A DNA stretch of 32,000 nt, taken from NCBI RefSeq assembly GCF_022985615.1, contig NZ_CP094965.1, positions 120,001 to 152,000 on the forward strand, written 5' to 3'. This DNA comes from Candidatus Karelsulcia muelleri. Lineage in GTDB: Bacteria > Bacteroidota > Bacteroidia > Flavobacteriales > Blattabacteriaceae. Positions within the stretch are counted from its first letter, which is position 1, and every line of letters begins with the position of its first letter. Under the pieces are notes generated by a model. The model did not search any database and was not told where the DNA came from. It saw only the letters and a list, made by a program, of their open reading frames with translations. Of the stretch, positions 12,672 through 29,967 are shown in pieces. The position numbers and the translations under genes were made by a program.

Positions 12672-13370
12672 ATGGGACAAAAGGTAAATCCGATAGCCAA
12701 TCGGCTAGGAATCTCAACTTGCTGGAAATCAATATGGTATAGTGAAAAGTTTAATCAGCTGAAAGAAGATTTAGAAATACGAAAATATCTAAATATTAGA
12801 TTAGCAAAATCTTATTTATCATACATATATATAGAACGAAAAAAGTATAAAATTTTTATTACAATTTACTCTTCAAGACCTGTAATAATTATTGGAAAAG
12901 GCGGTAATGAAATAGAAAAATTAAAAAAAGAAATTAATAAAATTACTAAGAAAAAAATAAATATTAATATACTAGAAGTAAAGATCCCAGAAATAGAAGC
13001 TCTCTTGATTGCAAGAAACCTTGCAAATCAAATTGAAAATCGTCTACCATATAAAAAAGCTATAAAATTCGCAATAAATTCTGCATTACGTAAAAAGGTA
13101 GAAGGGATCAAAATTAAAATTTCTGGTCGTTTAAATGGAACTGAAATGGCACGTACGGAATTTTATAAAGAAGGAAGAATTCCTTTTTCGACTTTTAGAG
13201 CTAACATAGATTATTCAACTTATGAAGCTCATACTACTTATGGGAAAATAGGGATAAAAGTATGGCTTATGAAAGGAGTAGTATATAATAAAAAAGAATT
13301 ATATCTCTATCTCTTAAGACCTAAAAAGAAAAAAAAAACAAGTACTTATGCTAAAGCCAAAAATAAATAA
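12672..13370 (+). CDS. rpsC: 30S ribosomal protein S3
   Basis: [19 protein letters not shown], the KH block [13 protein letters not shown], and [30 protein letters not shown] match S3. Confidence 0.96.
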
Positions 13371-13755
13371 ATTTGATAAACTCCATAAAGGCCGAATAAA
13401 AGGATATGCTAAAAAAGGTACAAAACTTCACTTTGGGATATTTGGACTAAAAACTTTAGATACAGCTTGGCTTTCAGATAGACAAATAGAAGCAGCACGT
13501 ATAGCAGCTACACGACATATGAAAAGACAAGGAAAATTATGGATCAATATTTTTCCTAATAAGCCTATTACAAAAAAACCTCAAGAAGTTAGAATGGGTA
13601 AAGGAAAAGGGGCTATAGACCATTGGGTGGCTGTGGTAAAACCTGGGAGAATATTAATAGAAATCGATGGAGTAAATTTGGAAATAGGAAAAGAAGCTTT
13701 AAGATTAGCTGCTAATAAATTGCCAATAAGAACAAAATTAATTTTAAAAGGATGA
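13348..13755 (+). CDS. rplP: 50S ribosomal protein L16
   Basis: [19 protein letters not shown]..., [44 protein letters not shown] match L16. Confidence 0.96.
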
Positions 13756-13991
13756 GGAAAAAAAAAAGAATTGGTATAATATTAAGTGATAAAATGAATA
13801 AAACAAGAGTAGTAGGTGAAGTAGTAAAAAGAAAACATAAGATTTATAAAAAGAATATTTATTATACCAGAAAATATTTTGTTCACGATGAAAAAAATAA
13901 ATCCAATAAAGGGAATACAGTAGAAATAATTTTTACACGACCATTAAGTAAGAAGAAACGTTGGAATTTATTTAAAATAATAAAATGTTAA
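13752..13991 (+). CDS. rpsQ: 30S ribosomal protein S17
   Basis: [16 protein letters not shown]...HKIYKK...[31 protein letters not shown] matches S17. It overlaps rplP by 4 nt, so there is no room for rpmC. Confidence 0.92.
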
Positions 13992-14006
13992 TGTTAAGAA
14001 TCAAAT

Positions 14007-14375
14007 ATGTTACAACAAGAATCATTTCTTAATGTTGCTGATAACACGGGTGCAAAAAAAGTTTTATTAATCCGTGTATTAGGAGGTACTAAAAAAAACT
14101 ATGCTTCTCTTGGCGATACTATTATAGTAACAGTTAAAAATTCAATTGCTGGATCTACCATCAAAAAAGGACAAGTCACAAAAGCAGTAGTAGTTCGAAC
14201 AAAATATAAAGTTAAACGCAAGGATGGATCATATATAAGTTTCGATGATAATGCCTGTGTTTTATTATCAAAAAGTGGCGAAATTAGAGGTACTAGAATC
14301 TTTGGGCCAGTGGCAAGAGAATTAAGAGAAAAAGAATATATGAAAATAATTTCATTAGCTGTAGAAGTATTATAA
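14007..14375 (+). CDS. rplN: 50S ribosomal protein L14
   Basis: [27 protein letters not shown]...[19 protein letters not shown] is a canonical L14. Confidence 0.97.
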
Positions 14376-14382
14376 TATTAAA

Positions 14383-14715
14383 ATGAAAATTAAAACTAAA
14401 GATACTATATTAATTAATAGTGGGAATTCTAAAGGCAAGAAAGGGCAAGTTATAAAGATTATAAAAAAGAAAAAGAGAGCTTTAGTAAAACTTTTCAATC
14501 AGCAATTAATTGAAATTGATTTATCGAATATACTTTTAATATATAGACCCTCTTATAATTATAAGAGTTTTGACAAAGTCCAAAAACTTTTAATTAAAGT
14601 GAGAAAAATAAATAAAAAATTAAATTCTTTCTTTTCGATAGAAGAATTAAAGAATTTATTAAAGATTAGAGATTTAGAAAATATTAAACTTAGAAAGAAT
14701 GAATTATTTACCTAG
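14383..14715 (+). CDS. rplX: 50S ribosomal protein L24 (KOW domain conserved, C-terminal half highly divergent)
   Basis: The N-terminal KTKDTILINSGNSKGKKGQVIKI is the L24 KOW motif, and the gene lies between rplN and rplE. The remainder is hard to align apart from ...IEIDLSNILLI. Confidence 0.75.
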   Translation: MKIKTKDTILINSGNSKGKKGQVIKIIKKKKRALVKLFNQQLIEIDLSNILLIYRPSYNYKSFDKVQKLLIKVRKINKKLNSFFSIEELKNLLKIRDLENIKLRKNELFT

Positions 14716-15244
14716 ATTGAAAAAAAAATACAATGAAGAGATTAAATTAAAATTAAAAAAAAAGTTTCTATATGAAGGTATAATGCAAATTCCCAAATTA
14801 ACTAAAATAGTAATAAATCAAGGTATTAACAGATCTATATATGATAAAAATACATTAAATAATGCAATTGAAAATATTTCTTTAATATCTGGACAGAAAG
14901 CAATTTTTTGCCAATCAAAACGTGATGAATCAGGATTTCAACTAAGAAAAGGAACACCTATCAGTGTAAAAGTCACACTACGCAGAAATAGAATGTATGA
15001 ATTTTTAGATAGATTAATAAATATTGTTTTACCTAGAGTTCGTGATTTCAATGGAGTAAATAAAAAGAGTTTTGATGGAAAAGGAAATTATAATTTAGGA
15101 ATTCGTGAACAAATTATCTTTCCAGAAATAAAAAAAGATTTTAAAAAAAATATAGGAATGAATATTACTTTTGTGACTACTGCTAAAAAAGATAAAGAAG
15201 CTAAATATTTATTATATTTATTTGGTCTTCCTTTTAAAAAATAA
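14699..15244 (+). CDS. rplE: 50S ribosomal protein L5
   Basis: [15 protein letters not shown]...[13 protein letters not shown]...[19 protein letters not shown]...[20 protein letters not shown] matches L5. Confidence 0.95.
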
Positions 15245-15248
15245 AATT

Positions 15249-15518
15249 ATGTCTAAAGAATCTATAAAAGCTAGACAAAAAAAACGTAGAATTTTAGTTG
15301 AGAAATATGCTAAAAAAAGAGCTTATTATAAGAAAATAGGAGATAATATAAATTTACAAAAATTGCCTAAAAATGCTTCTCCAGTTCGTTTACATAATAT
15401 TTGTAAGCTCACTGGGAGAACTAAAGGTTATATTCGCAAATTTGGGGTCTCACGATTAGAATTTAGACGATTAGCCTCTCAAGGTTTAATTCCAGGAGTA
15501 AGAAAAGCTAGTTGGTAA
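15249..15518 (+). CDS. rpsN: 30S ribosomal protein S14
   Basis: [24 protein letters not shown]... and ...[43 protein letters not shown] match S14. I prefer ATG 15249 over the TTG-extended ORF at 15222, which overlaps the rplE end. Confidence 0.93.
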
Positions 15519-15530
15519 AAAAATAAAAGA

Positions 15531-15920
15531 ATGATTACAGATCCAATTGCCGATTGTTTAACAAGAATTAGAAATGGGTGCCTATCTAAGAAAGATATTA
15601 TTTATATACAATATTCGAAAGTTATAAAAAATATTCTTAAAATTTTCCTTGAACAAGGGTTTATAGGAAATTATAAATTAAAAACAAATAAAATAATAAA
15701 GGTATATTTAAAATATATTTATCCTAAAAAAAACTCGGTAATTAAATATATTAAAAGAATAAGTAAACCAAGTTTAAGAAAATATTCAAGTAGTAAAAAT
15801 TTACCTAGAGTTCTTAATGGGTTAGGAATAGCTATTATATCAACCTCAAAAGGAATAATTACTGATAAATTAGCTAGAAAAAAAAAACTAGGTGGTGAAA
15901 TAATTTGTTATGTATATTAA
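15531..15920 (+). CDS. rpsH: 30S ribosomal protein S8
   Basis: [16 protein letters not shown]... and ...[33 protein letters not shown] match S8. Confidence 0.96.
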
Positions 15921-15936
15921 ATAATATAAAAGCTTC

Positions 15937-16503
15937 ATGTCTAGAATTGGAAAAAGAAATATTATTATACCCAAGAATATTTTAATTAAAATTAAAAATA
16001 AGGTAATTTCTGTAACTGGTCCTCTTGGAAAACTTTCTCTTCAAATAAGAGGGAACCTAAAAATAGAAAGGGCAGAAAATAAAATAACAATAAAAAGAAG
16101 AGAGAATAATAAATATAATAAATATAATAAATCTCTACATGGATTATACAGAATGCTAATTAATAATATGATTATTGGTGTATTATATGGTTTTAAAAAA
16201 GAATTAGAATTGAAAGGAGTAGGTTATAAAGTTGCTTTAGATAATGAAAAAAAAGTATTAGAATTTAACTTAGGCTACTCTCATAATATAGTAATGAATT
16301 TCCCCAAAGACTTAAAAGTAGAAATAAAAAATGAAATGAACAAAAATCCTCGTATTATTTTAATGTCATATGATAAACAATTATTGGGGATATTTGCGGC
16401 TAAAATAAGATCTTTAAGAAAACCTGATCCTTATAAAGGCAAAGGAATTCGTTATATTAATGAATATATTATTAAAAAAGCAGGTAAATCGACTGTTAAA
16501 TAA
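15937..16503 (+). CDS. rplF: 50S ribosomal protein L6
   Basis: MSRIGKRNIIIPKN...V.GPLGKLS...LHGLYRMLINNMIIGV..GF.KELELKGVGYK...PDPYKGKGIRY matches L6. Confidence 0.94.
   Translation: MSRIGKRNIIIPKNILIKIKNKVISVTGPLGKLSLQIRGNLKIERAENKITIKRRENNKYNKYNKSLHGLYRMLINNMIIGVLYGFKKELELKGVGYKVALDNEKKVLEFNLGYSHNIVMNFPKDLKVEIKNEMNKNPRIILMSYDKQLLGIFAAKIRSLRKPDPYKGKGIRYINEYIIKKAGKSTVK
16108..16132. repeat. 9-bp tandem repeat (AATAAATAT, about 2.8 copies) inside rplF
   Basis: Direct reading. The protein shows NNKYNKYNKS, and the repeat is in-frame. Confidence 0.8.
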
Positions 16504-16516
16504 ATGAATTGCTTAT

Positions 16517-16804
16517 ATGAAAAAAAAAAGACCTAGAATTTCAGTCTTTAGAAGTAATAAGCAGATTTATGTTCAAATAATAGATGATGTTAATCATCAG
16601 ACTTTACTATCATATTCTTCGAAAAAAAAATCTAATTTAAAAATTACTAAAACTAAAATGGCAAGGAAAATAGGGATGATTTTAGGAGAAAAAGCCAAAA
16701 AAAGAGGTATTTATAAGTTAGTTTTTGATAGAAATGGATATTTATATCATGGTAGAGTTAAAGCTTTGGCAGAGGGTTTAAGAAAAACTGGTTTAAAATT
16801 TTAA
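16517..16804 (+). CDS. rplR: 50S ribosomal protein L18 (short N-terminus)
   Basis: RPRISVFRSNKQIYVQIIDD...VFDRNGYLYHGRVKALAEGLRKTGLKF matches L18. Confidence 0.93.
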   Translation: MKKKRPRISVFRSNKQIYVQIIDDVNHQTLLSYSSKKKSNLKITKTKMARKIGMILGEKAKKRGIYKLVFDRNGYLYHGRVKALAEGLRKTGLKF

Positions 16805-16807
16805 AAT

Positions 16808-17302
16808 ATGAAAGTACAAGGAAACAAATTAAAAGAGAAATTAGTAACTTTAAAAAGAGTATGTAAAGTCACAAAAGGAAGAAGATATTTCAGTTTTACA
16901 GCTTTAGTAGTTAAAGGAAATAAAAAGGGGTTAGTAGGTTTTGGGGTTGGCAAAGCTAAAGAACCACAAAACGCTATAAAAAAGGCTGGAGATAAAGCAG
17001 AAAAAAGATTGGTTAAAATATCATTAAAAAGGGGAACTATTCCTCATGAACAAAAAGCTAAACATGGCAGTACTTATATATTTCTTTATCCAGCTTCTGA
17101 AGGTACTGGAATAATTGCAGGTGGTGTGGTTAGAATAGTTTTAGAATTAGTAGGTGTAAAAAATATTTTCTCTAAATTGAATGGTTCATCTAATCCTAAT
17201 AATTGCATTAGGGCAGTAATATTAGCTTTAACAAAAATTAGAAATGCATATACTATTTCCAAAGAAAGAGGGATATCTATTAAAAAGATTTTTGAAGTTT
17301 AA
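16808..17302 (+). CDS. rpsE: 30S ribosomal protein S5
   Basis: LVTLKRVCKVTKGRRYFSFTALVVKGNKKGLVGFGVGKAKE...ASEGTGIIAGGVVRIVLELVGVKNI matches S5. Confidence 0.96.
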   Translation: MKVQGNKLKEKLVTLKRVCKVTKGRRYFSFTALVVKGNKKGLVGFGVGKAKEPQNAIKKAGDKAEKRLVKISLKRGTIPHEQKAKHGSTYIFLYPASEGTGIIAGGVVRIVLELVGVKNIFSKLNGSSNPNNCIRAVILALTKIRNAYTISKERGISIKKIFEV

Positions 17303-17314
17303 ATTTATTATACC

Positions 17315-17767
17315 ATGATTCTGAATCATTTAACTCCTCTTCAAGGCTCAAATAAGAAAGGCAAACGATTAGGAAGAGGAAAAGGTTCTGGAAAAGGAAA
17401 AACGGCTACTAGAGGTAATAAAGGGGCTAAATCTCGTTCTGGGAATTCTGTGAAATTAGGATTTGAAGGTGGACAAATGCCTTTCCATAAACGGATTCCC
17501 AAATTTGGATTTAAAAATAGAAATAAAAAAAAATATAAAATATTTAATTTAGAAACGCTAGAAGATCTAATAAATATTGGAAAAGTAAAAAGAAATTTAA
17601 TAAATAATAATGTATTGATAAAAATTGGTTTATTAAAAAAAAAAGAGGTTTTTAAAATCTTAGGAAAAGGGGAATTAACTCATAAAATAAAACTTTTTGC
17701 TCATAAGTTTAGTAAAAAAGCCTCTCTAAAGATTAAAAAGCTTGGAGGAAAGCCTATAATTAAATAA
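17315..17767 (+). CDS. rplO: 50S ribosomal protein L15
   Basis: L.PLQGSNKKGKRLGRGKGSGKGKTATRGNKGAKSRSG...GFEGGQMPFHKRIPKFGF matches L15. It follows rpsE directly, with no rpmD between them. Confidence 0.95.
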   Translation: MILNHLTPLQGSNKKGKRLGRGKGSGKGKTATRGNKGAKSRSGNSVKLGFEGGQMPFHKRIPKFGFKNRNKKKYKIFNLETLEDLINIGKVKRNLINNNVLIKIGLLKKKEVFKILGKGELTHKIKLFAHKFSKKASLKIKKLGGKPIIK

Positions 17768-17771
17768 ATAA

Positions 17772-17988
17772 ATGACGAAAGCAAAATATATTAAATCCAA
17801 GGTATGGATAGTCAAACAGGCTTTACCAAATGTTACCAAGTACAAAAGGATAGTAACTGGATAAAGGTAAAAATGTAAAAAAAGGGAAAATGAGAAGGAA
17901 TTATATTAAAATTTTACCAGGCGATAAAGTTAAATTGCAGATTTACTATTATGATTTAACTAAAGCAAGAATAATATATAGATACTAA
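17772..17988 (+). pseudogene. infA: translation initiation factor IF-1 gene interrupted by a 1-nt frame disruption and an in-frame TAA
   Basis: ATG 17772 opens [30 protein letters not shown], which stops at TAA 17862-17864. Skipping T17862 continues as [41 protein letters not shown] (stop 17986-17988). The joined product is 71 aa, the normal IF-1 size, and its C-terminal half fits the IF-1 pattern GKMR.n.I.ilpGDkV.ve.spYDl.kgRI.yR. Confidence 0.8.
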
Positions 17989-18014
17989 AAGTTATAAAGT
18001 TATAATCTAAAGTT

Positions 18015-18131
18015 ATGAAAAAAGTTACCTCTTTAAAAAGAAGAAGTCAAAATTGCAAAATTGTTAAAAGAAAAGGAAAATTAATAATTATAAATAAAGT
18101 TAAACCGAAATATAAACAAAAACAAAGATAA
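18015..18131 (+). CDS. rpmJ: 50S ribosomal protein L36
   Basis: Below the ORF-track size cut-off. My hand translation is MKKVTSLKRRSQNCKIVKRKGKLIIINKVKPKYKQKQR* (38 aa), which matches L36 (MKVr.SvKk.C..CkivkRkG.v.vIc..pkhKQrQg). Confidence 0.88.
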   Translation: MKKVTSLKRRSQNCKIVKRKGKLIIINKVKPKYKQKQR

Positions 18132-18134
18132 TAT

Positions 18135-18518
18135 ATGGCTCTGATATCTGGAATAAATATACCAGAAAATAAAAGAGGAATTATAGCTCTAACTTATATT
18201 TTTGGGATTGGAAAAAATATTTCTAAAACAATATTTGAAATTCTAAAAATGAATCCAAATACAAAAGTAAAGAATTGGTCAGATTTAGAATTAAATAATA
18301 TTAGAAAATTTATAAATAAGAATATAAAAATTGAAGGGGAGTTGAAAACTGAGATTAAATTAGATATTAAGAGATTACTTGATATAAAATGTTATAGAGG
18401 AATCAGACATAAAATTGGTCTTCCAGTTAGAGGTCAGAAGACTAAAAATAATTGTAGGACCAGAAAAGGGAAAAGAAAAACAATAGCTAATAAAAAAAAA
18501 ATTATTAAAAAGTCATAA
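18135..18518 (+). CDS. rpsM: 30S ribosomal protein S13
   Basis: MALISGINIPENKRGIIALTYIFGIGKN...IKCYRGIRHKIGLPVRGQKTKNNCRTRKG matches S13. Confidence 0.96.
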   Translation: MALISGINIPENKRGIIALTYIFGIGKNISKTIFEILKMNPNTKVKNWSDLELNNIRKFINKNIKIEGELKTEIKLDIKRLLDIKCYRGIRHKIGLPVRGQKTKNNCRTRKGKRKTIANKKKIIKKS

Positions 18519-18521
18519 TAA

Positions 18522-18875
18522 ATGAAAAATCAAGATATATCTTGTTGCAATGTTCACATAAAGTCTACATTTAACAATATTATTATAACTTTGTCTAATT
18601 TTAAAGGTGATGTGCTGGCCTGGGCTTCAGCTGGACAAAAAGGTTTTAAAGGTGCAAAAAAAAATACCCCTTATGCTGCTTGTAAAACAGCTCAAGATAT
18701 AGTAGAAAAAGGGAAAAAAATGGGTATTAAAAAAATTAATATTATTGTTAAAGGTCCAGGAGGTGGACGAGAAGCAGCAATTAGAACTTTAAGTAATCTA
18801 AATGTTATGAAAATAAAAGATATTACTCCTATTCCCCATAATGGTTGTAGACCCCCAAAAAAAAGAAGAATATAG
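18522..18875 (+). CDS. rpsK: 30S ribosomal protein S11 (short N-terminus)
   Basis: [43 protein letters not shown]...[15 protein letters not shown]...[19 protein letters not shown] matches S11. Confidence 0.95.
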
Positions 18876-18902
18876 TATATTATATATAAAATATATAAAA
18901 AA

Positions 18903-19499
18903 ATGGCTAAATATATTGGTCCTAAAAATAAAATCTCTAGAAAATTTGGTTGTCTTATTTATGGAATTAAAAAAAAAAGTTTTGAAAAAAAAAACTATCC
19001 ACCTGGTCAACATGGACCAAAAAAAAAAACAATAAATTTTAATAAATCAAATTATTATATTCAATTATTAGAAAAACAAAAGATAAAATATCTTTATGGA
19101 ATTCTAGAAAAACAATTTAGAAAAATCTTTGAAAAAGCTTCAAAAAAAAAGGGGATCACTGGAGAAATACTTTTACAACTTTGTGAATCCAGGTTAGATA
19201 ATGTCGTCTATAGATTAAATTTTGCTCCTACTAGACCAAGTGCCAGACAGTTAGTTACTCATCGACATATATTAGTAAATGGAAAAATTGTTAATATTCC
19301 ATCTTTTACATTAAAACCTGGGGATATAATTTCGGTTAAAGAAAATTTAAAAATCTCTGCAAATTATAAATTACTAAAAAAAATTTCCAATTGGTTGATG
19401 TTAAAAAAAAGGAAAGGAATTTTTAAATATATTCCTAGGAGAGAACAAATTCCCGAAAATATTAATGAACGTTTACTAGTAGAATTGTATTCTAAATAA
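18903..19499 (+). CDS. rpsD: 30S ribosomal protein S4
   Basis: [16 protein letters not shown]..., [12 protein letters not shown] and the S4 domain [51 protein letters not shown] match S4. Confidence 0.96.
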
Positions 19500-19519
19500 T
19501 TTAATTTAATAATAGTATT

Positions 19520-20560
19520 ATGATTTCACCAGCCCAGATAAAAATCTTAACAAATTCTAAAAATAGAGGGAAATTTTTAATAAAACCTTTAAGTACTGGA
19601 TTTGGAATTACTCTAGGAAATTCATTAAGGAGAGTTTTAATATCATATTTAGAAGGATATGCCATATATTATATAATGATTAATGGTGTCAAACATGAAT
19701 TCTCTTATATAGATGGAGTAATAGAAAATCTAACTGAAATAATTTTAAATTTAAAACAAATACGTTTTAAATTAAAAAGTAAAATTTATAAAAAAATCCC
19801 AGAACAGTTTACAATATTTTTAACAAAAAAAAAGTCTAAAATTACTGCTGGAGATTTATGTGGATCTATTACTTGTTTTGAAGTATTGAATCCAAATTTA
19901 TTAATTTTGAATAAAGAGTTAGATACTAATTTAAAAATTACTCTCGGTATAAAAAAAGGAGTTGGATATATTCCAGTAGAAAAAAAAAAGAATAAAATAG
20001 GAAAAATACCAATTGATACTATTTTTAGTCCCATAATAAACGTAAGCTTAAAAGTAGAAACTTGTGAAGTGAATAATTGCTATGAATACGATAGTTTGAT
20101 TATAGATATTCGTACTGATGGTTCAATTACTCCAAAAAAGGCTTTAAAAAAAGCTTCTAGTATCCTAATACAACATTTTACTTTATTTTTTAATGGTAAA
20201 AAAACAGAATTAAAGCTCCCAATAAAATATACTGATTATAAAGAAAGAATAAAATATTTATATATGCAAAAACTTTTAAATTGTTTAAAATTTGCTAAAA
20301 TTAAAACTTGGGCTGACTTAGTAAAAGTTAAAAACTTAGGATTAGCTTATGATTCTGAGTCTGAGTATAATTTTGGAAATTTTGGAGGAGGAGATTATGG
20401 TCTTGATTTATCAAAATATCAAATATCAAAATATCAAATTAAAATTTCTAATAAAAAAAAAAGAATAAAAAATTTTCGTGAAAAAATGAGAAAAATAGTA
20501 AAGCTAAGAAATGTTATTAAAAGAAGAAAAATGACCAAAAAAAATGAGACACCAAAATAA
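19520..20560 (+). CDS. rpoA: DNA-directed RNA polymerase alpha subunit (C-terminal domain eroded)
   Basis: The N-terminal domain is clear (GKFLIKPLSTGFGITLGNSLRRVLISYLEGYAI...IDTIFSPIINV...LIIDIRTDGSI). The C-terminal domain keeps only LLNCLKFAKIKTWADLV and then becomes repeat-rich and Lys-rich. It overlaps rplQ by 17 nt. Confidence 0.9.
   Translation: MISPAQIKILTNSKNRGKFLIKPLSTGFGITLGNSLRRVLISYLEGYAIYYIMINGVKHEFSYIDGVIENLTEIILNLKQIRFKLKSKIYKKIPEQFTIFLTKKKSKITAGDLCGSITCFEVLNPNLLILNKELDTNLKITLGIKKGVGYIPVEKKKNKIGKIPIDTIFSPIINVSLKVETCEVNNCYEYDSLIIDIRTDGSITPKKALKKASSILIQHFTLFFNGKKTELKLPIKYTDYKERIKYLYMQKLLNCLKFAKIKTWADLVKVKNLGLAYDSESEYNFGNFGGGDYGLDLSKYQISKYQIKISNKKKRIKNFREKMRKIVKLRNVIKRRKMTKKNETPK
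20411..20440. repeat. 15-bp tandem duplication inside the rpoA C-terminal region (SKYQI x2)
   Basis: TCAAAATATCAAATA / TCAAAATATCAAATT are adjacent. The TCTGAG x2 (20354-20365) and AATTTTGGA x2 (20369-20386) duplications lie just upstream. All three are in-frame. Confidence 0.85.
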
Positions 20561-20894
20561 AAATAATAATTTAGGACGAAATAAGTCTCATAGAAAATCC
20601 CTATTAACTAATCTGGCTATTTCCCTAATAAAACATAAAAGAATTAAAACAACTTTAGCTAAAGCAAAATCTTTAAAAAAATTCATTGAACCAATAATAA
20701 CTAGAGGTAAAAAAAAAGATACTCATTCTATGCGAATAGTATTTAAAAAATTAAATGATAAAACTGCTGTTTTGGAACTTTTAAAAAATATATCAAAAAA
20801 TAATTTAAAACGTAATGGAGGATATACAAGAATTATTAAACTTGGCAAGAGGTTAGGAGATTTTTCAGAAATGGCAATAATGGAGCTAGTTTAA
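20544..20894 (+). CDS. rplQ: 50S ribosomal protein L17
   Basis: MRHQNKNNNLGRNKSHRKSLLTNLAISLIKHKRIKTTLAKAKSLKKFIEPIIT and ...RNGGYTRIIKLGKRLGD match L17. Confidence 0.95.
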   Translation: MRHQNKNNNLGRNKSHRKSLLTNLAISLIKHKRIKTTLAKAKSLKKFIEPIITRGKKKDTHSMRIVFKKLNDKTAVLELLKNISKNNLKRNGGYTRIIKLGKRLGDFSEMAIMELV

Positions 20895-21796
20895 TGAAAT
20901 ATTTTCATATACCAGTTTTATTATCGGAAGTTCTAGAAAACCTTATTAAGGATATTAATGGTATCTATATAGATACTACTTTTGGTAGTGGTGGACATTC
21001 TTTTGGGATATTAAAGAAAATAAGTAATCAAGGTAAATTATTTGCTTTTGATCAAGATCAATTTGCAATTATTAAAAATAAAATTTGTGATAAAAGAATA
21101 AGATTTTTTAACGAGAACTTTCGAAATATACAAAAAATATTAAAAGCTTATAAAAACAACATTCTAAAGAATGTATCAGGAATAATAGCCGATTTAGGAG
21201 TTTCCTCGTATCAAATAGATACACCACAACGAGGGTTTTCAATAAGATTTAATAAAATTTTGGATATGAGAATGGATTTATCAAAACAAAAGTCGGCTTT
21301 AAATATAATAAAAAATTATTCTTTTGAAAAATTAAATAAGATTTTTAATAAATATGGGGAGTTTAAAAATCCGCAAAGAATATCTAGAAAAATTGTTTTA
21401 AACAGTAAATTTATTAACACTACTTTGGATTTAGTAAATCTATTCAAAAGAAATAATAACAGGAAATTTTTATCTAGATTATTCCAAGCTTTAAGAATAG
21501 AGGTAAATGATGAAATAAATGCGTTAAAGAAATTACTTAAACAATCAATAAATATTTTAAAACCGGGAGGTAGATTAGCTATTATTTCCTATCATTCATT
21601 AGAAGATAGGTTAGTTAAAAACTTCTTTAAAAGTGGAAATATACAGGGGATTATTAAATATGATAAGAAAGGTAAGAATTTATCTCCATTTAATAAAAAA
21701 TATACTAAAAGAATTTTTCCAACAAAAGAAGAAATCACTAAAAATAATAGAGCTAGAAGTGCTATATTAAGAATTACACAAAAAAAAGTATGTTGA
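20894..21796 (+). CDS. rsmH: 16S rRNA (cytosine1402-N4)-methyltransferase (MraW/RsmH)
   Basis: HIPVLLSEVLENL...YIDTTFGSGGHS...DQD..A...ADLGVSSYQID...RGFS...LDMRMD...ISYHSLEDRLVK are the RsmH blocks. The TGA stop (21794-21796) lies inside a duplicated copy of the rnpB 5' end. Confidence 0.92.
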   Translation: MKYFHIPVLLSEVLENLIKDINGIYIDTTFGSGGHSFGILKKISNQGKLFAFDQDQFAIIKNKICDKRIRFFNENFRNIQKILKAYKNNILKNVSGIIADLGVSSYQIDTPQRGFSIRFNKILDMRMDLSKQKSALNIIKNYSFEKLNKIFNKYGEFKNPQRISRKIVLNSKFINTTLDLVNLFKRNNNRKFLSRLFQALRIEVNDEINALKKLLKQSINILKPGGRLAIISYHSLEDRLVKNFFKSGNIQGIIKYDKKGKNLSPFNKKYTKRIFPTKEEITKNNRARSAILRITQKKVC

Positions 21797-21903
21797 TTTA
21801 TCGCATTGTTTGTTTTTAAACAAACAATGAGGAAAGTAAAGTATGTTAAGTATAAGTATAAGTATAAGTATAAGTATAAGTATGTTGATTTATCGCATTG
21901 TTT
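21788..21903. repeat. duplicated copies of the rnpB 5' segment separated by a (GTATAA)5 microsatellite
   Basis: A 50-nt block GTATGTTGATTTATCGCATTGTTTGTTTTTAAACAAACAATGAGGAAAGT at 21788-21837 is identical to 21906-21955, the true rnpB 5' end. A 24-nt partial copy lies at 21880-21903, and an 8-nt start (GTATGTTA) lies at 21841-21848. GTATAA x5 occupies 21850-21879. Confidence 0.92.
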
Positions 21904-22225
21904 AAGTATGTTGATTTATCGCATTGTTTGTTTTTAAACAAACAATGAGGAAAGTCTGGAATCACTAGGGATAACGCAACGGGTAACTCCCGTACATCGT
22001 GAGATGAGGAATAGTGCAACAGAAAGTATGTACAGTTGAGCTGTAGTGAAATCATGTAAACTCTGTGTTGTGAAATGCCAAATATACCAGAAGTATAGTA
22101 GTATAGTTCATCCCTAACTAAATATCTGCTAACTAAATATCTGGGGGGTAGGCAGATCGAGATAAAGGGTAACTTTTATCCTAGATAAATGATAAATTAA
22201 ACTGAATCCGGCTTATAACATACTT
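21904..22225 (+). ncRNA. rnpB: RNase P RNA (bacterial type A-like, reduced)
   Basis: The conserved blocks are present: GAGGAAAGTCTGG (CR-I/P4 5' strand), ACAGAAAGTATG, and AAACTGAATCCGGCTTATAACATACTT (CR-V/P4 3' strand plus P1 3' strand). The 5' AAGTATGTT and 3' AACATACTT pair as P1. Confidence 0.85.
22114..22143. repeat. perfect 15-bp tandem duplication inside the RNase P RNA gene
   Basis: CTAACTAAATATCTG occurs twice back to back, between the conserved core blocks of rnpB. Confidence 0.9.
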
Positions 22226-22229
22226 TTTT

Positions 22230-23906
22230 TTAAAAATATTTCTCTATATTATTTATATCTAATAAGAATAAGATTTTTTGTTTGAATTTTAATAAATTAT
22301 CAATTTTTAATATTTGTTTTATTAGCTTCCTTATTGTTAAGGAAGCAATCTTTTGTTTTGTTTCTAATTTATAAAAATTATATATATTTTTATATATTAA
22401 TTTTTCAATGATTTTATCATCTTGGTAAATATAAAGATCATATAATAACCTATATACATATATTTTTTTTAAAAACTTAGGAGAATAAGTAATTGAAATA
22501 GAATTTTCAAAACATTTTATTTTAAAACCAAAATTAATTAAAATTTCTATAATTTTGGTTTTAGTTTTTTTAGTAAAAAATTTATTCAATTTAATATTTA
22601 TCGGTGGGTATAATTTATAGATTTTGTGTTTTTTTATTTCTTTTTTAAACTTATCCTCTAAAATTATTTTATAGACTCTATCTTTATGAATAATTAAAAC
22701 ACCAAAATCTAAAAGACATAATATATATTTTTTATAGATCTTAAATTGGGTAAAATCCAGATCTATTTTCTTAAGATCTATTTTCTTAAGAAATATTTTA
22801 TTAAGAAATATTTTCTTAAGAAATATTTTATTAAGAAATTCTTGACAATTATTATTTAGGTTGCGGTTTTTTTCTTCTTTATCTTTTTTTTTAGAGTAAA
22901 ACTTAAAAATATTCTGTAGGCCTAAATATTCTTTAATTATTATATTTATATTTTTACAAATTTCTGACTCTGATTTAATGAGTATTTTGTTTTTGGATTG
23001 ACAAATATTAATTTCAATTTGTTTGGTTGGAATAGTAAGAAATAAAAAATAATTTGGTTTATTAGTTTTGTTTATTAGACCGTTATAGGCTTTAATAATA
23101 GACTTGTGAATTCTTTTGTTTACTACGTATCTATTATTAACAAACAAATAATAATTCTTAAATTGAGTATTAAAAAAACTTGTAGAAGTGATATATCCTT
23201 TTATAAGAAATAATTTATCTTTTTTAAAAACTTTGATTAAGACATTTTTATAATATTCGCCAAAAATTTTAATTATTCTATATTTTAGATTTGATTTTTT
23301 TAAACTGGTAATTATCTTATTATTATGCATCATAACAAAATTAATATCAGGGTGTGAAAGAACTATCTTATTAAATTCTGATATGATATATCTTAATTCA
23401 ATATGGGCAGATTTTAAAAAGTTTTTTCTATTGGGGAAATTGTAAAATAAGTTTTTCACATATATACTAGTACCATTTAATAAATTATTTAATAATACAG
23501 GGGGATATTTAAGCTTTTGATTTTCTAATGTTAAGAAGACTCCAAATTCTGATTTGGTTTTTTTAGTGTATATTTCTACCTGGCTAACTAAAGAAATATA
23601 GTATAAAGCTTCACCTCGAAAGCCTTTAGTATTTAGTGATTTGATATCTTTAAGAGAATATAATTTGGAAGTATAAAATCTCCTAATACTATTTTTCGCT
23701 TCTAAATGATTCATTCCATCACCATCATCTATAACATTAATTAAATCTTTCCCACCATTCAATAATATCAATTTAATATTTTTTGAATGTGCATCAATTG
23801 AGTTTTCTAATAATTCTTTTACTACAGAAGCTGGTCTTTTAATTACATATCCTGCTGAAATTTTATTTGAATCTTGTGTGGGTAGAATTTTTATGGTATT
23901 TTTCAT
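22230..23906 (-). CDS. mutL: DNA mismatch repair protein MutL homologue (N-terminal GHKL ATPase recognisable, C-terminal domain degenerate)
   Basis: The N-terminus reads IKILPTQDSNKISAGYVIKRPASVVKELLENSIDAHSKNIKLILLNGGKDLINVIDDGDGM...KGFRGEAL. In the C-terminal part I cannot find DQHA(x)2E(x)4E: the aligned position reads LIIHKDRVYKIILED. I also cannot find a CPHGRP-like motif. Confidence 0.8.
   Translation of the reverse strand: MKNTIKILPTQDSNKISAGYVIKRPASVVKELLENSIDAHSKNIKLILLNGGKDLINVIDDGDGMNHLEAKNSIRRFYTSKLYSLKDIKSLNTKGFRGEALYYISLVSQVEIYTKKTKSEFGVFLTLENQKLKYPPVLLNNLLNGTSIYVKNLFYNFPNRKNFLKSAHIELRYIISEFNKIVLSHPDINFVMMHNNKIITSLKKSNLKYRIIKIFGEYYKNVLIKVFKKDKLFLIKGYITSTSFFNTQFKNYYLFVNNRYVVNKRIHKSIIKAYNGLINKTNKPNYFLFLTIPTKQIEINICQSKNKILIKSESEICKNINIIIKEYLGLQNIFKFYSKKKDKEEKNRNLNNNCQEFLNKIFLKKIFLNKIFLKKIDLKKIDLDFTQFKIYKKYILCLLDFGVLIIHKDRVYKIILEDKFKKEIKKHKIYKLYPPINIKLNKFFTKKTKTKIIEILINFGFKIKCFENSISITYSPKFLKKIYVYRLLYDLYIYQDDKIIEKLIYKNIYNFYKLETKQKIASLTIRKLIKQILKIDNLLKFKQKILFLLDINNIEKYF
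22759..22839. repeat. 15-bp tandem array (about 5.4 units) inside mutL
   Basis: The units are AGATCTATTTTCTTA x2 followed by AGAAATATTTT(A/C)TTA x3, plus a partial unit. They encode FLNKIFLKKIFLNKIFLKKIDLKKIDL in the linker between the N- and C-terminal domains, in-frame. Confidence 0.9.
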
Positions 23907-23932
23907 AAGAACTCTATAAAAACAAAACCAAA

Positions 23933-25414
23933 TTAAGATTTTAAACGCATTTGTGGAAAAAATAAGACCTCCTGAATATTTCTTTGATTAGTAAATAACA
24001 TGATTAAACGATCAATCCCAAAGCCTATACCACTACAAGGAGGCATACCATATTCTAATGAAAGAATAAAGTCTTTATCTATTAACATATTTTCAGATTC
24101 AACTTTATTATATAATTTAATTTGTCTTTTAAATCTCTTGAATTGATCAATTGGATCATTTAATTCTGAATAAGAATTCGCTATTTCAACACCATTAATT
24201 ATTAATTCATATCTTTCAGATAAACCATTTTTAAAGCGATGTTTTTTAGCTAATGGACTCATTTCAAGGGGAAAATCAATTATAAAAGTTGGTTGAATAA
24301 TTTTTTTTTCACATTTTTGACTGAATATTTGATCGAGAAGTTGTCCTTTTTTCATCTTATTATCAATCTTCACATTTATTTCCTTACATATTTTTCTAAT
24401 TTCAGTTTCAATAAGATTACTTAGGTCAAATCCAGTATAAATTTTAATAGCTTCAAAAAAAGTAATTTTTTTAAAGGGTGAAATCAAATGAAGAGATTGT
24501 TTGCCTACTTTGGCAAATTTTAAACAAATTTTTTGTAAAAACTTTTCAGTAAATTTCATCATCCAATAATAATCTTTATAGGCTACATATAATTCTAGAA
24601 TTGTAAATTCTGGATTATGATTTTTATCTATCCCCTCGTTTCTAAAATTTCTAGAAAATTCATAAACTTTTTCTAAACCTCCAACTAGTAATTTTTTTAA
24701 ATATAATTCATTGGAAATTCTTAAATAGAATGTACTTTTTAAGGTATTATGATATGTAATAAATGGTCTGGCAATAGCACCACCCGGAATGGCTTGTAAA
24801 ATAGGAGTTTCAACTTCTAAATAATTTCTTTTATTTAAATAATTTCTTATAAAACTTATAATTTTAATACGTGTAAAAAATACAGTTTTAATTTCGTCAT
24901 TAACGATCAAATCAACATATTTCATTCTATGTCGTTTTTCATTATTAGAAAAAGAATCAAAAGTATTTCCCGATTTATCTTTTTTTACGTTTGGTAAAGT
25001 ATGTAGACATTTAGATAATAAATTTATTTTTTTTGCATATACAGAAATTTGGTTATTTTTAGTTTTGAATAAATAACCTTTCAACCATATTATATCTCCG
25101 ATATCTAAAAGTTTTTTTAAAAACAAATTGTATATATTTTTGCCAGTATAAAAATTATTTATGGATATATAAATTTGTATCAAACCTTCTTTATCTTTTA
25201 TTTCAATAAAAGAAGCCTTTCCCATTATTCTAATTCTAATAATTCTACCAGCAACAATAACCTTTTTATTTTTTTTGTAATTATTAATTATTTTTTTTGA
25301 ATTAGAATTTATTGGATATTCTTCAGAAGGATAAGGATTAATATTTATTTTGTTTAATTTTTTAAGCTTTTTTATTCTAATCAAATTTTGGTCATAAATA
25401 CGCAAATTTCTCAT
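23933..25414 (-). CDS. lysS: lysine--tRNA ligase (class II)
   Basis: 493-aa ORF with an OB-fold N-domain (VIVAGRIIRIRIMGKASFIEIKD..G.IQIYI). Class II motifs are present: FLEVETPILQAIPGGAIARPF, RNFRNEGID..HNPEFT.LE and GIGFGIDRLIMLFT. Confidence 0.95.
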   Translation of the reverse strand: MRNLRIYDQNLIRIKKLKKLNKININPYPSEEYPINSNSKKIINNYKKNKKVIVAGRIIRIRIMGKASFIEIKDKEGLIQIYISINNFYTGKNIYNLFLKKLLDIGDIIWLKGYLFKTKNNQISVYAKKINLLSKCLHTLPNVKKDKSGNTFDSFSNNEKRHRMKYVDLIVNDEIKTVFFTRIKIISFIRNYLNKRNYLEVETPILQAIPGGAIARPFITYHNTLKSTFYLRISNELYLKKLLVGGLEKVYEFSRNFRNEGIDKNHNPEFTILELYVAYKDYYWMMKFTEKFLQKICLKFAKVGKQSLHLISPFKKITFFEAIKIYTGFDLSNLIETEIRKICKEINVKIDNKMKKGQLLDQIFSQKCEKKIIQPTFIIDFPLEMSPLAKKHRFKNGLSERYELIINGVEIANSYSELNDPIDQFKRFKRQIKLYNKVESENMLIDKDFILSLEYGMPPCSGIGFGIDRLIMLFTNQRNIQEVLFFPQMRLKS

Positions 25415-25421
25415 TAAAAGA

Positions 25422-25453
25422 ATATTAAGACCTTGAAATATTAAGACCTTGAA
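25422..25453. repeat. perfect 16-bp tandem duplication covering the 3' acceptor end of tRNA-Arg
   Basis: ATATTAAGACCTTGAA occurs twice back to back. Copy 2 contains the tRNA 3' acceptor strand (GACCTTG on the + strand). Copy 1 repeats it in the lysS-tRNA spacer. Confidence 0.9.
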
Positions 25454-25517
25454 GGGAGTTGAACCCTTACTCTTCTGATCCGTAGTCAGATGCTTTATCC
25501 AATTAAGCTACAAGGCC
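25444..25517 (-). tRNA. tRNA-Arg (anticodon ACG)
   Basis: The reverse complement GGCCTTG TA GCTT AATTGGATA AAGC A TCTGA CTACGGA TCAGA AGAGT AAGGG TTCAACT CCCTT CAAGGTC T folds as a 74-nt cloverleaf with anticodon ACG. Confidence 0.85.
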
Positions 25518-29062: not shown

Positions 29063-29967
29063 TTATAGGAGGTGGTCCAGCAGGATATACGGCAGCCATT
29101 TATTTAGCTCGTGCAGAAATAAAACACCTTCTTTTTACAGGCTTTAAACCAGGTGGACAATTGATATCAACTAATAAAATAGAAAATTATCCTGGTTTTC
29201 CTGATGGGATATCTGGTTACAAATTAATGGAATCTTTTAAAGCCCAAAGCGAAAACTTCGGGACTAAGGTAAAAGATAATAGTGTAGTAAAAATTAATTT
29301 TAATATAATAAAAAATTGGCATGAAATTATCTTAGATAATTCTTTAAAAATAAAAACCAAAACACTAATTATAGCGACTGGAGCTTCTCCTAGATATTTA
29401 AATATTGAGAATGAAAAAAAATTAATTGGAAAGGGTATTTATACATGTGCAAATTGTGATGGCTTTTTTTTTAAAGGGAAAAAAGTAGCAGTAATTGGTG
29501 GAGGGGATAAAGCAGCAGAAGAATCTATTTATTTAGCTAATATTTGTAAAAAAGTATATCTAATAATAAGAGATAAAAAAATGAAAGCTTCAAAAATTAT
29601 GCAAAAAAAAGTTTTAAACATTAAAAATGTTGAAATATTTTATTATCATAAAGTTATAAAAATAATTGGAGAAAAAAAAATAAAAGCGATTTTTTGTAAA
29701 AACAGAAAAAATAATAATAATTACTTATTTAAGGTGGCAGCTCTTTTTTTAGCTATTGGGCAAATTCCAAATAGTCTTATTTGTAAACCAAATCTAAAAT
29801 TAGATAAATCTGGATATATAATTACAAAATATACAATTACTAATATTCCTGGAATATTTGCAGCAGGAGATGTGCAAGACACAAGATATCGACAAGCAAT
29901 CACCTCAGCTGGATCTGGTTGTATGTCTGCAATAGAGGTAGAAAAATACCTTATTAAAGTTCAATAA
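29026..29967 (+). CDS. trxB: thioredoxin-disulfide reductase
   Basis: 313-aa ORF. The FAD site is DCIIIGGGPAGYTAAIYLAR, the redox centre is CANCDGFFF, the NADPH site is VAVIGGGDKAAEE, and GIFAAGDVQD follows. Confidence 0.94.
   Translation: MSNREREIFDCIIIGGGPAGYTAAIYLARAEIKHLLFTGFKPGGQLISTNKIENYPGFPDGISGYKLMESFKAQSENFGTKVKDNSVVKINFNIIKNWHEIILDNSLKIKTKTLIIATGASPRYLNIENEKKLIGKGIYTCANCDGFFFKGKKVAVIGGGDKAAEESIYLANICKKVYLIIRDKKMKASKIMQKKVLNIKNVEIFYYHKVIKIIGEKKIKAIFCKNRKNNNNYLFKVAALFLAIGQIPNSLICKPNLKLDKSGYIITKYTITNIPGIFAAGDVQDTRYRQAITSAGSGCMSAIEVEKYLIKVQ

What the first reader, a model, noticed from the sequence alone, without database searches (positions are those of the whole stretch)
21788..21955. 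The 5' end of the RNase P RNA gene is present in multiple copies around a (GTATAA)5 microsatellite, and one copy supplies the rsmH stop codon
Seen in sequence:
- The first 50 nt of rnpB (P1 5' strand through GAGGAAAGT of the CR-I/P4 block) occur identically at 21788-21837 and 21906-21955.
- A 24-nt partial copy lies at 21880-21903, and an 8-nt start lies at 21841-21848.
- GTATAA x5 fills 21850-21879.
- The upstream copy overlaps the last codons and the TGA of rsmH (21794-21796).
- Only the third copy is contiguous with the rest of the ribozyme.

Inference: repeated slippage or unequal exchange has occurred at an essential ncRNA gene. Transcripts starting upstream would carry alternative P1/P4 strands that could compete during folding. 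All copies are identical, so the event is recent or copy number is variable.
Basis: partly seen in the sequence, partly recalled or inferred. Interest (0 to 1): 0.65.

Follow-up and report, generated by a model that had tools for sequence, protein, structure and literature searches.

The report
Duplicated start of RNase P gene
In a tiny insect-symbiont genome (Sulcia of a planthopper), the first 52 bases of the essential RNase P RNA gene were copied in tandem several times where the gene overlaps its upstream neighbour; this is a real, fast-changing but probably harmless scar of replication slippage.

Summary
There are exact 52-nt copies at 21786-21837 and 21904-21955, a 26-nt copy at 21878-21903, a 9-nt copy at 21839-21847 and an (AAGTAT)n array between them. 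All are prefixes of rnpB. rsmH ends with a TGA inside copy 1.

The window is Candidatus Karelsulcia muelleri from a planthopper, probably Pyrops. Comparative data settle the history.
- Single-copy relatives (DICMUL, and eight SRA assemblies with 98% RsmH identity) already have the rsmH TGA inside rnpB P1. The overlap is therefore ancestral.
- Two genomes 99-99.9% identical to the window carry the same duplication, but with 2 rather than 5 hexamers and no 26-nt unit. The structure is real and its copy number varies.
- A third lineage has an independent 20-nt prefix duplication at the same spot.

The event fits the tandem-repeat instability already described for Sulcia.

The Rfam model puts rnpB on copy 3. 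However, P1 in single-copy relatives extends into the A8 tract that only copy 1 retains. Folding then predicts that a transcript from the ancestral start pairs P1 with copy 1 and extrudes the insert as a long P3 arm. The ribozyme core survives either way.

It is a curiosity, not a new system.

The parts
20894..21796 (+). rsmH (16S rRNA m4C1402 methyltransferase), 300 aa. The last codons GTA TGT TGA lie inside rnpB prefix copy 1.
   Evidence: ORF. Pfam PF01795 at 280 bits, with the domain ending at residue 297 of 300.
21760..21768 (+). TGCTATATT, an extended -10-like motif inside rsmH. It is the candidate ancestral rnpB promoter (inferred, not shown).
   Evidence: Read from the sequence. It is identical in 8 of the 9 relatives whose rnpB starts at the A tract (L098 reads TGCTATCTT) and is altered in OPOL2, where rnpB lies 60 nt further downstream. 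The consensus scan found no two-hexamer promoter on the + strand between 21585 and 22070.
21780..21787 (+). A8 tract (rsmH Lys codons). It holds every left breakpoint of the duplications and is complementary to the U8 run after the rnpB 3' end.
   Evidence: Inverted repeat I11: 21780-21794 against 22217-22231, 15 nt, 100% complementary. Junction parsing.
21786..21837 (+). Copy 1 of the rnpB 5' prefix (P1 5' strand, P2 5' strand, the complete P3 hairpin, and GAGGAAAGU). It sits in the ancestral position overlapping rsmH.
   Evidence: 100% identical to 21904-21955. Single-copy relatives have rnpB exactly here.
21839..21847 (+). 9-nt prefix copy AAGTATGTT, preceded by a single A at 21838.
   Evidence: Shared with CP094963 and CP094964.
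21848..21877 (+). Each unit is a 6-nt rnpB prefix. Close relatives have only 2 units.
   Evidence: TRF period 6, 6.2 copies, 100%. Part of the 44-nt indel against CP094964.
21878..21903 (+). 26-nt prefix copy (P1 and P2 5' strands plus the P3 5' strand). Specific to the window; absent from CP094963 and CP094964.
21904..22231 (+). rnpB, bacterial type A RNase P RNA, as placed by the covariance model (copy 3 plus the rest of the gene). P4 is formed by 21952-21960 (with U21955 bulged) and 22207-22214. The P1 3' strand is 22217-22225, followed by U8 at 22224-22231.
   Evidence: RF00010 hit at 21903-22230, 165.1 bits, E 9.6e-52, model 1-367. The P4 pairing was worked out by hand from the sequence and the known CR-I/CR-V pairing.
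22114..22143 (+). A second perfect tandem duplication specific to the window, inside rnpB (15 nt x2, P16/P17 arm).
   Evidence: TRF. Absent from CP094964, CP094963 and L085.
22230..23906 (-). mutL, convergent with rnpB. Its stop codon overlaps the U8 run by 2 nt. It carries a 15-nt x5 in-frame repeat whose copy number also varies between strains.

Best explanation
The locus is a nest of serial tandem duplications of the 5' prefix of rnpB. It arose in one lineage of planthopper Sulcia, probably the symbionts of Pyrops.

History:
1. In the ancestor, rsmH, rnpB and mutL were packed with no spacers. The last three rsmH codons and its TGA lay inside the P1 5' strand of rnpB.
2. A ~53-nt tandem duplication with its left breakpoint in the A8 tract produced two copies. 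The upstream copy still ends rsmH. The downstream copy is contiguous with the ribozyme.
3. Later short duplications in the same register (9 nt, 6 nt x n, 26 nt) filled the spacer. They still change between near-identical strains.

This is the multi-nucleotide tandem-repeat expansion and contraction that dominates indels in Sulcia. I infer it is neutral or nearly so.

Why it is tolerated (inferred):
- One uninterrupted rnpB always remains. Only duplications whose left edge is at or before the RNA's 5' end leave the distal copy intact, and that filter explains the common register.
- The founding unit contains the whole P3 hairpin, so the insertion is topologically equivalent to an insertion in the P3 loop.

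Likely RNA (my preferred sub-model, about 45%): the RNA still starts at the ancestral site upstream of copy 1 and pairs P1/P2 with copy 1, using the A8:U8 extension. Copy-1 P3a pairs with copy-3 P3b, and the 74-118-nt insert is extruded as a hypervariable P3 arm.

Shown: the repeats, their variation between strains, the ancestral overlap, and the intact type-A RNA. Inferred: the order of events, neutrality, the transcription start and the fold.
For: Anatomy:
- Searches give the repeats; one search gives the RF00010 hit.

Identity of the genome:
- RsmH relatives are all Candidatus Karelsulcia muelleri.
- The window's own contig is 156,326 bp. This fits the 155.8-156.7 kb Pyrops Sulcia genomes of PMC10333215.

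Ancestral overlap:
- A single rnpB copy with the rsmH stop inside or abutting P1 is seen in DICMUL, in L085-L092 (eight independent SRA assemblies, RsmH 98%) and in L095, L096, L097 and L098.

Real and variable:
- CP094963 and CP094964 share copy 1 + A + AAGTATGTT + hexamers + full copy, but with a 74-nt rather than 118-nt period.
- Over 12.1 kb, the window and CP094964 differ by 17 substitutions and 4 indel loci. All four are whole tandem-repeat units, and those in coding sequence are in frame.

Recurrence:
- L093 (RsmH 97%) has an independent duplication, A8GTATGTTGATT|AAAAGT|AAAGTATGTTGATTTATCGC.

Literature:
[quoted passage not shown] Hypervariable regions were noted there (PMC7952229).

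Fold and transcription start:
- P1 in single-copy relatives is 11-15 bp and reaches into the A tract. Compensatory changes support this: C-G in DICMUL and L097, AUA/UAU in L095.
- In the window only copy 1 can make the 15-bp P1. Copy 3 makes 9 bp.
- For a transcript starting upstream of copy 1, P1 probability is 0.97-0.98 with copy 1 and 0.00 with copy 3.
- The constrained MFE is 10-12 kcal/mol better with copy 1.
- The P3 super-hairpin has probability 0.89-0.93.
- No sigma-70-like promoter is predicted between the copies.
Against: - The junctions show almost no microhomology (0-1 nt). The 5-nt AAAGT repeat that could have mediated slippage predicts a 48-nt unit, but ~53 nt is observed. Classical microhomology slippage therefore does not explain the founding events, and the shared register could instead reflect a mutational hot spot in the A8 tract.
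- The covariance model places the RNA on copy 3.
- In L093 the duplication (20 nt, without P3) cannot be absorbed into P3, and the 3' U run has been lost there. This suggests the downstream copy is the one used in that lineage.
- The folding results are equilibrium predictions without the P4 pseudoknot, without protein and without co-transcriptional kinetics. RNAfold also does not recover P2.
- No transcript data exist.
- I did not check exact unit counts in the window against reads.
Confidence: 0.72

Rival explanations
1. Only copy 3 matters. Either transcription starts at a new site within or just after the repeats, or the upstream copies are an inert 5' leader. The mature RNase P RNA would be the ~327-nt molecule at 21904-22231 with a 9-bp P1.
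For: - RF00010 aligns full length on copy 3, and likewise on the downstream copy in CP094963, CP094964 and L093.
- In L093 the downstream copy must be used for a contiguous P1-P2, and the U run that would pair with the A tract has been lost.
- The AAGTAT|AAGTAT junctions create TATAAG, one mismatch from TATAAT (read from the sequence).
Against: - The scan found no promoter on the + strand between the copies.
- TATAAG lacks the conserved T6. In CP094964 the last TATAAG abuts the gene, so initiation about 7 nt downstream would truncate P1.
- The U8 run and the extended-P1 covariation argue that the ancestral RNA starts upstream of the A tract.
- Tiny Sulcia genomes have few RNases available to trim a leader (general knowledge, not tested here).
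Confidence: 0.38
2. One reading: the extra P1, P2 and partial P4 strands are decoys that misfold the ribozyme. On this view the locus is a mildly deleterious, unstable lesion in an essential gene, drifting in a small population.
For: - Three alternative P1/P2 5' strands exist, at 21786, 21878 and 21904.
- Thermodynamics predicts that the 3' strand of P1 does not pair with copy 3 when the upstream copies are present.
- If both local P3 hairpins form co-transcriptionally, the P2-P3-J3/4 geometry would be broken (inference).
Against: - The duplication has persisted through the divergence of three genomes and has grown rather than been purged.
- A precise reversion by deletion between 52-nt perfect repeats should be easy, but it has not been fixed.
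- The predicted dominant fold keeps a native-like core.
Confidence: 0.12
3. The hexamer array is a functional, hypermutable tuning element, like a contingency locus. On this view, changes in unit number alter rnpB promoter strength, spacing or leader structure, and so set RNase P RNA levels.
For: - Unit number differs (2 versus 5) between genomes about 99.9% identical.
- The units create -10-like TATAAG hexamers directly upstream of the gene.
- Three of the five or more indel events separating the window from CP094964 in 12 kb cluster within 300 nt at rnpB.
Against: - Other tandem repeats with no conceivable regulatory role (mutL linker, rpoA tail) vary just as much.
- Sulcia indels are generally repeat expansions and contractions.
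- No promoter was predicted.
- A strictly vertically inherited nutritional symbiont has no obvious need for phase variation.
Confidence: 0.07
4. Assembly or polishing artefact of a Nanopore+Illumina hybrid assembly. This would apply at least to the window-specific extras: 3 hexamers, the 26-nt unit and the 15-nt unit.
For: - The likely source genomes were assembled with Canu, then polished with medaka and Pilon.
- The 170-nt repeat block is slightly longer than a 150-nt read.
- I could not inspect reads.
Against: - The core architecture is shared by three separately assembled genomes.
- All the other indels between them are clean whole-unit, in-frame changes.
- An independent duplication of the same kind occurs in L093, from another project.
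- The authors checked the read mappings.
- Assemblers do not invent perfect nested prefix copies.
Confidence: 0.04

Closest known systems
Hypervariable microsatellite and tandem-repeat regions of Sulcia genomes (Waneka et al. 2020, PMC7952229)
   Same: - Same organism group and the same mutational behaviour.
[quoted passage not shown]
- Copy number differs between very close genomes.
   Different: - Here the repeat units are copies of the 5' end of an essential ribozyme gene at a gene overlap.
- They are nested prefixes of 6, 9, 26 and 52 nt rather than a simple microsatellite.
- That paper does not describe rnpB.
Short tandemly repeated repetitive (STRR) heptamers inside rnpB helix P12 of heterocyst-forming cyanobacteria (Vioque 1997; recalled from memory, not checked here)
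   Same: - Tandem repeats are tolerated within the transcribed RNase P RNA because they sit in a peripheral helix.
- Copy number varies between strains.
   Different: - STRRs are genome-wide heptamers inserted in P12.
- Here the repeats derive from the gene's own 5' end.
- They lie upstream of the gene or, if transcribed, in P3, and they overlap a protein-coding stop codon.
Simple-sequence-repeat contingency loci of host-adapted bacteria (Haemophilus, Neisseria, Mycoplasma)
   Same: A short-unit repeat directly upstream of a gene, with unit number changing on very short evolutionary time scales.
   Different: - There is no evidence for a promoter, for switching or for any selective benefit.
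- The neighbouring coding repeats behave the same way.
Expansion segments and helix extensions of structured RNAs (for example the enlarged P3 of eukaryotic RNase P/MRP, or rRNA expansion segments)
   Same: If the RNA starts at copy 1, a peripheral helix (P3) is enlarged by 74-118 nt while the core is unchanged.
   Different: - No protein-binding role is known, and the RNA has not been observed.
- The extension would be made by duplicating the RNA's own 5' segment.

Membership tests
Bacterial RNase P RNA class A (Rfam RF00010) | Covariance-model score at or above the gathering threshold over the full model | tested here: met
   165.1 bits against 100, model positions 1-367, window 21903-22230. 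Relatives score 110-182 bits.
Bacterial RNase P RNA class A (Rfam RF00010) | CR-I (GAGGAAAGUC) and CR-V (ACNGAANCCGGCUUA) able to form the P4 pseudoknot with a bulged U | tested here: met
   Manual pairing of 21952-21960 (U21955 bulged) with 22207-22214 gives 8 bp, including one G-U. Copy 1 lacks the CUGGA half (sequence).
Bacterial RNase P RNA class A (Rfam RF00010) | P1 helix closing the molecule, supported by covariation | tested here: met
   - Copy 3 gives 9 bp and copy 1 gives 15 bp.
- Compensatory changes are seen in DICMUL and L097 (C-G) and in L095 (AUA/UAU).
Bacterial RNase P RNA class A (Rfam RF00010) | Catalytic activity in pre-tRNA 5' processing, and the actual RNA ends | not testable with these tools
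   No transcript or biochemical data were available.
RsmH / MraW methyltransferase (PF01795) | Full-length match to the family profile | tested here: met
   280 bits, residues 3-297 against profile 2-308 of 309. The overlap with rnpB covers only the three residues beyond the domain.
Slippage-type tandem duplication / microsatellite | Head-to-tail copies of high identity, with unit number varying among close relatives | tested here: met
   100% identity. There are 2 versus 5 spacer hexamers, and the 26-nt unit is present or absent, between genomes 99.9% identical.
Slippage-type tandem duplication / microsatellite | Microhomology at the junctions of the founding duplications | tested here: not met
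   - The junctions 52|-1, 9|1, 6|1 and 26|1 share 0-1 nt.
- The AAAGT...AAAGT microhomology predicts GAGGAAAGTATG, but the sequence reads GAGGAAAGTAAAGTATG.
SSR contingency (phase-variable) locus | Repeat located in a promoter spacer or ORF, so that unit changes switch expression | tested here: inconclusive
   The consensus scan found no promoter between the copies. Only weak TATAAG motifs are present, and the array lies downstream of the rsmH stop.
SSR contingency (phase-variable) locus | Reversible ON/OFF phenotype within populations | not testable with these tools
   Needs reads or RNA from individual hosts.
Cyanobacterial STRR insertions in rnpB | Genome-wide heptamer family inserted in helix P12 | tested here: not met
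   The units are 6, 9, 26 and 52 nt, derive from the rnpB 5' end, lie upstream of or in P3, and occur nowhere else in the window.

The most novel reading that the evidence does not exclude
In Pyrops-type Sulcia, RNase P RNA would be a ~400-455-nt molecule that still starts at the ancestral site in rsmH. It would carry a 74-118-nt, rapidly evolving arm grown out of P3 by tandem duplication of the RNA's own 5' end.

This would be a caught-in-the-act natural example of how expansion segments arise in a catalytic RNA. The rsmH/rnpB junction would be a recurrent hot spot, since an independent event is seen in L093. All the breakpoints would be anchored at the transcription start and A tract, possibly through replication stalling there.
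Probability: 0.35. Interest if true: 0.6.

Novelty: new variant of a known kind. Interest (0 to 1): 0.38.

Why it matters
- **Limits of gene packing.** The locus shows how an essential structured RNA gene, squeezed against both neighbours in a 156-kb genome, can absorb a partial self-duplication without losing function. One consequence is that a protein-gene/RNA-gene overlap becomes uncoupled.
- **Annotation.** The 5' end of rnpB and the 3' end of rsmH in these genomes should not be inferred from a covariance model alone.
- **A marker.** The repeat block is a fast-evolving marker for separating Sulcia strains that are otherwise almost invariant.
- **RNA evolution.** If the long RNA exists, it would be a rare natural snapshot of helix expansion in a ribozyme.

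It does not reveal a new biological system.

Tried and rejected
Searches that gave nothing:
- Exact-protein look-ups of the window's own RsmH and MutL found no contig. RplQ, RpmJ and RpsK look-ups led to only two close genomes.
- A literature search for CP094963 found nothing.
- Neither planthopper genome paper mentions rnpB, RNase P or tandem repeats.
- A search for rnpB tandem duplications in endosymbionts gave no relevant paper.
- The promoter/terminator scan gave no usable signal near the repeats. Its counts equal the shuffled expectation.

Ideas considered and rejected:
- TGA read as Trp, so that rsmH reads through the in-frame hexamers. Rejected because RsmH ends at the same place in all relatives, the Pfam domain ends at residue 297, and all other ORFs are intact under code 11.
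- AAAGT-microhomology slippage as the founding event. Rejected because it predicts a 48-nt unit, which is not observed.
- L093's short duplication as a deletion derivative of the Pyrops one. Rejected because it needs an extra A, and the Pyrops copies both carry the derived 4-bp-longer P3 that L093 lacks.
- Copy 1's P3 hairpin as an rsmH terminator. Rejected because no U run follows it.

Not attempted: the metagenome scan and structure prediction, which are irrelevant here.
Full report
**1. What is in the sequence**

The region reads, 5' to 3':
- The A8 tract.
- Copy 1, the first 52 nt of rnpB: GTATGTTGATTTATCGCATTGTTTGTTTTTAAACAAACAATGAGGAAAGT, counted from the last two As of the tract (21786-21837).
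- A single A (21838).
- AAGTATGTT (21839-21847).
- AAGTAT x5 (21848-21877).
- AAGTATGTTGATTTATCGCATTGTTT (21878-21903).
- The complete rnpB, from 21904.

The repeat finder gives the two 52-nt copies as 100% identical. Tandem Repeats Finder gives the period-6 (6.2 copies) and period-26 (2.0 copies) arrays at 100%. The 26-mer occurs three times against zero expected.

Every block is a prefix of rnpB in one register. Rfam RF00010 matches 21903-22230 over the full model at 165 bits. rsmH (20894-21796) ends with a TGA inside copy 1.

**2. Whose genome it is**

The window has 25% G+C. It carries the S10-spc-alpha ribosomal protein cluster followed by rsmH, rnpB, mutL and lysS. All close RsmH relatives are Candidatus Karelsulcia (Sulcia) muelleri of planthoppers.

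The window's own contig is 156,326 bp. Two genomes with an identical RplQ are 156,700 bp (CP094963) and 155,888 bp (CP094964). These sizes match the three Pyrops Sulcia genomes (155.8-156.7 kb) of Deng et al. 2023. Those were assembled from Nanopore reads with Canu, polished with medaka and Pilon, and checked by read mapping (PMC10333215). The assignment to Pyrops is an inference. That paper does not mention rnpB or tandem repeats.

**3. Comparative evidence**

(a) The overlap is ancestral. Several relatives have a single rnpB copy whose P1 5' strand contains the rsmH TGA, exactly as copy 1 does. These are DICMUL (RsmH 93%), L097 and eight independent SRA assemblies with 98% RsmH identity (L085-L092). 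Other lineages vary:

| Lineage | rsmH-rnpB junction |
|---|---|
| L095 | TAA overlapping by 2 nt |
| L096 | TAG inside P1 |
| L094 | 10-nt spacer |
| OPOL2 | 60-nt spacer |

(b) The duplication is real and variable. CP094963 and CP094964 both read copy 1 + A + AAGTATGTT + (AAGTAT)x2 + full gene. This gives a 74-nt period instead of the window's 118 nt. Over 12.1 kb, the window and CP094964 differ by 17 substitutions and four indel loci:
- 9 nt in rpoA.
- 44 nt here, made up of three hexamers plus the 26-nt unit.
- 15 nt inside rnpB.
- 15 nt in mutL.

All four are whole repeat units, and those in coding sequence are in frame. In CP094963 the downstream copy carries a G>T in P3 that copy 1 lacks, so the copies are not always identical.

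(c) The event recurs. L093 (RsmH 97%) reads A8GTATGTTGATT | AAAAGT | AAAGTATGTTGATTTATCGC. This is a different, shorter prefix duplication at the same place. Both Pyrops copies carry a derived, 4-bp-longer P3 that L085 and L093 lack. Independent origin is therefore the simpler reading.

**4. Mechanism of origin**

The literature on Sulcia fits this locus. [quoted passage not shown] One-base indels are rare, and hypervariable regions were seen during assembly (PMC7952229). The 32-kb window itself holds about fifteen perfect tandem duplications of 8-26-nt units.

The unusual feature here is the register. All left breakpoints, in the window and in L093, fall within the last three As of the A8 tract or at the first base of the RNA. 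The junctions show almost no microhomology. The obvious AAAGT/AAAGT microhomology predicts a 48-nt unit, which is not observed.

I see two explanations, and I could not separate them:
- **A selection filter.** Only duplications whose left edge lies at or before the RNA's 5' end leave the distal copy intact. Because short events are commonest, breakpoints pile up at that boundary.
- **A mutational hot spot.** The A tract, or the transcription start, is itself prone to breakage.

The tRNA-Arg gene shows a mirror-image case. Its 3' acceptor strand plus trailer is duplicated outside the gene (25421-25453). This favours the selection filter.

**5. What the RNA probably looks like**

The P4 helix needs AAAG-U-CUGGA (21951-21960) paired with UCCGGCUU (22207-22214). 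Copy 1 ends at the bulged U, so it cannot supply P4. To that extent only copy 3 is 'complete'.

However, in single-copy relatives P1 is 11-15 bp long and reaches into the A tract. Compensatory changes support this: C-G in DICMUL and L097, and AUA/UAU in L095. The ancestral RNA therefore starts upstream of the A tract, inside rsmH. An extended -10-like TGCTATATT sits there at 21760-21768. It is conserved in all but one (L098) of the genomes whose rnpB starts at the A tract, and altered in OPOL2. No promoter is predicted between the copies.

In the window only copy 1 keeps the A8 tract that pairs with the retained U8 (15 bp, against 9 bp for copy 3). For a transcript from the putative start, the predictions are:
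- P1 probability is 0.97-0.98 with copy 1 and 0.00 with copy 3.
- The constrained fold is 10-12 kcal/mol better with copy 1.
- With probability 0.89-0.93, copy-1 P3a pairs with copy-3 P3b, and copy-1 P3b pairs with copy-3 P3a.

Because the duplicated unit contains the entire P3 hairpin, the 118 nt are topologically an insertion in the P3 loop. P3 is a peripheral, length-variable helix (general knowledge). The core (P1-P2, J3/4, P4) is then native-like.

Several caveats apply:
- These are equilibrium predictions without the pseudoknot, the protein or folding kinetics.
- RNAfold does not recover P2.
- In L093 the duplication cannot be absorbed this way, and the U run is gone, so the downstream copy is probably the one used there.

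I rate the copy-1/P3-arm RNA and the copy-3 RNA as about equally likely. In both cases the ribozyme is intact, which explains why the structure has persisted and grown.

**6. Verdict**

The feature is real and lineage-specific, and its copy number varies. It is best explained as a near-neutral product of the tandem-repeat instability typical of Sulcia, acting on an ancestral rsmH/rnpB overlap. The duplication uncouples the rsmH terminus from the functional ribozyme.

It is not an assembly artefact. There are three separate assemblies, plus an independent event in another project. There is also no evidence that it is regulatory.

It has not been described in the genome papers I could read. It is a new variant of a known kind of event, and of modest interest unless the long RNA is shown to exist.

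Noticed in passing
window 12015-24166 versus L083, L081 and L001: The substitution spectrum is extreme.
- 14 of 14 differences between the window and CP094964 (over the 6.4-kb four-way alignment; 17 of 17 over 12.1 kb), and 42 of 43 between the window and CP094963, are G<->T or A<->C, the G:C<->T:A class. There are no transitions.
- Against DICMUL, 238 of 377 differences are in that class and only 69 are transitions.

This looks like an 8-oxoG-type signature. It contrasts with the roughly 0.5 transition fraction reported for leafhopper Sulcia.
   Followed up: partly
window 25421-25453 (tRNA-Arg 25444-25517, minus strand): The 3' acceptor strand of tRNA-Arg(ACG) plus a 7-nt trailer is perfectly duplicated in tandem (16 nt x2.1). 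The partial copy lies between the tRNA and the lysS start codon. This is a mirror image of the rnpB prefix copies.
   Followed up: partly
window 22114-22143: A perfect 15-nt tandem duplication (CTAACTAAATATCTG x2) lies inside rnpB, in the P16/P17 arm. It is absent from CP094963, CP094964, L085 and DICMUL.
   Followed up: partly
window 22764-22839 (mutL) and 20409-20439 (rpoA): In-frame 15-nt repeats occur in the MutL linker and the RpoA tail. Protein lengths differ among the three close genomes: MutL 553, 558 and 563 aa, and RpoA 341, 346 and 349 aa. The MutL C-terminal domain scores below the Pfam cut-off (16.5 against 25 bits), and RpoA has no alpha-CTD hit.
   Followed up: partly
window 17772-17988: infA appears split into two short ORFs of 30 and 32 aa. 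The relatives' annotation calls only a 43-aa eIF-1a fragment.
   Followed up: no
window 29967-30909: A roughly 940-nt non-coding stretch between convergent ORFs is packed with tandem repeats, including 24 nt x3 at 100% and 42 nt x2.7 at 98%. This is unusual for a 156-kb genome.
   Followed up: no
L093 2700-2715; L096 and L098 rnpB 5' ends: Three further oddities in relatives:
- L093 has lost the U run after the rnpB 3' end.
- L096 (AAGTAGTTT) and L098 (AAGGAGGTT) have mismatched P1 5' strands against an unchanged 3' strand. P1 is therefore decaying where it overlaps rsmH.
   Followed up: partly
L003 3910-4248 and L004 3362-3678: In non-planthopper Sulcia (SMEUTCHI, EHBR), rnpB lies next to rsmH but on the opposite strand. 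The gene is therefore inverted relative to the planthopper lineages.
   Followed up: no
window 21804-21829 versus L085 2410-2431: The Pyrops-type P3 stem is 4 bp longer than in L085, L093 and L095. It grew by an AAAC tandem duplication on the 3' strand plus a T>G on the 5' strand. This is a small compensated helix extension that predates the 52-nt duplication.
   Followed up: partly
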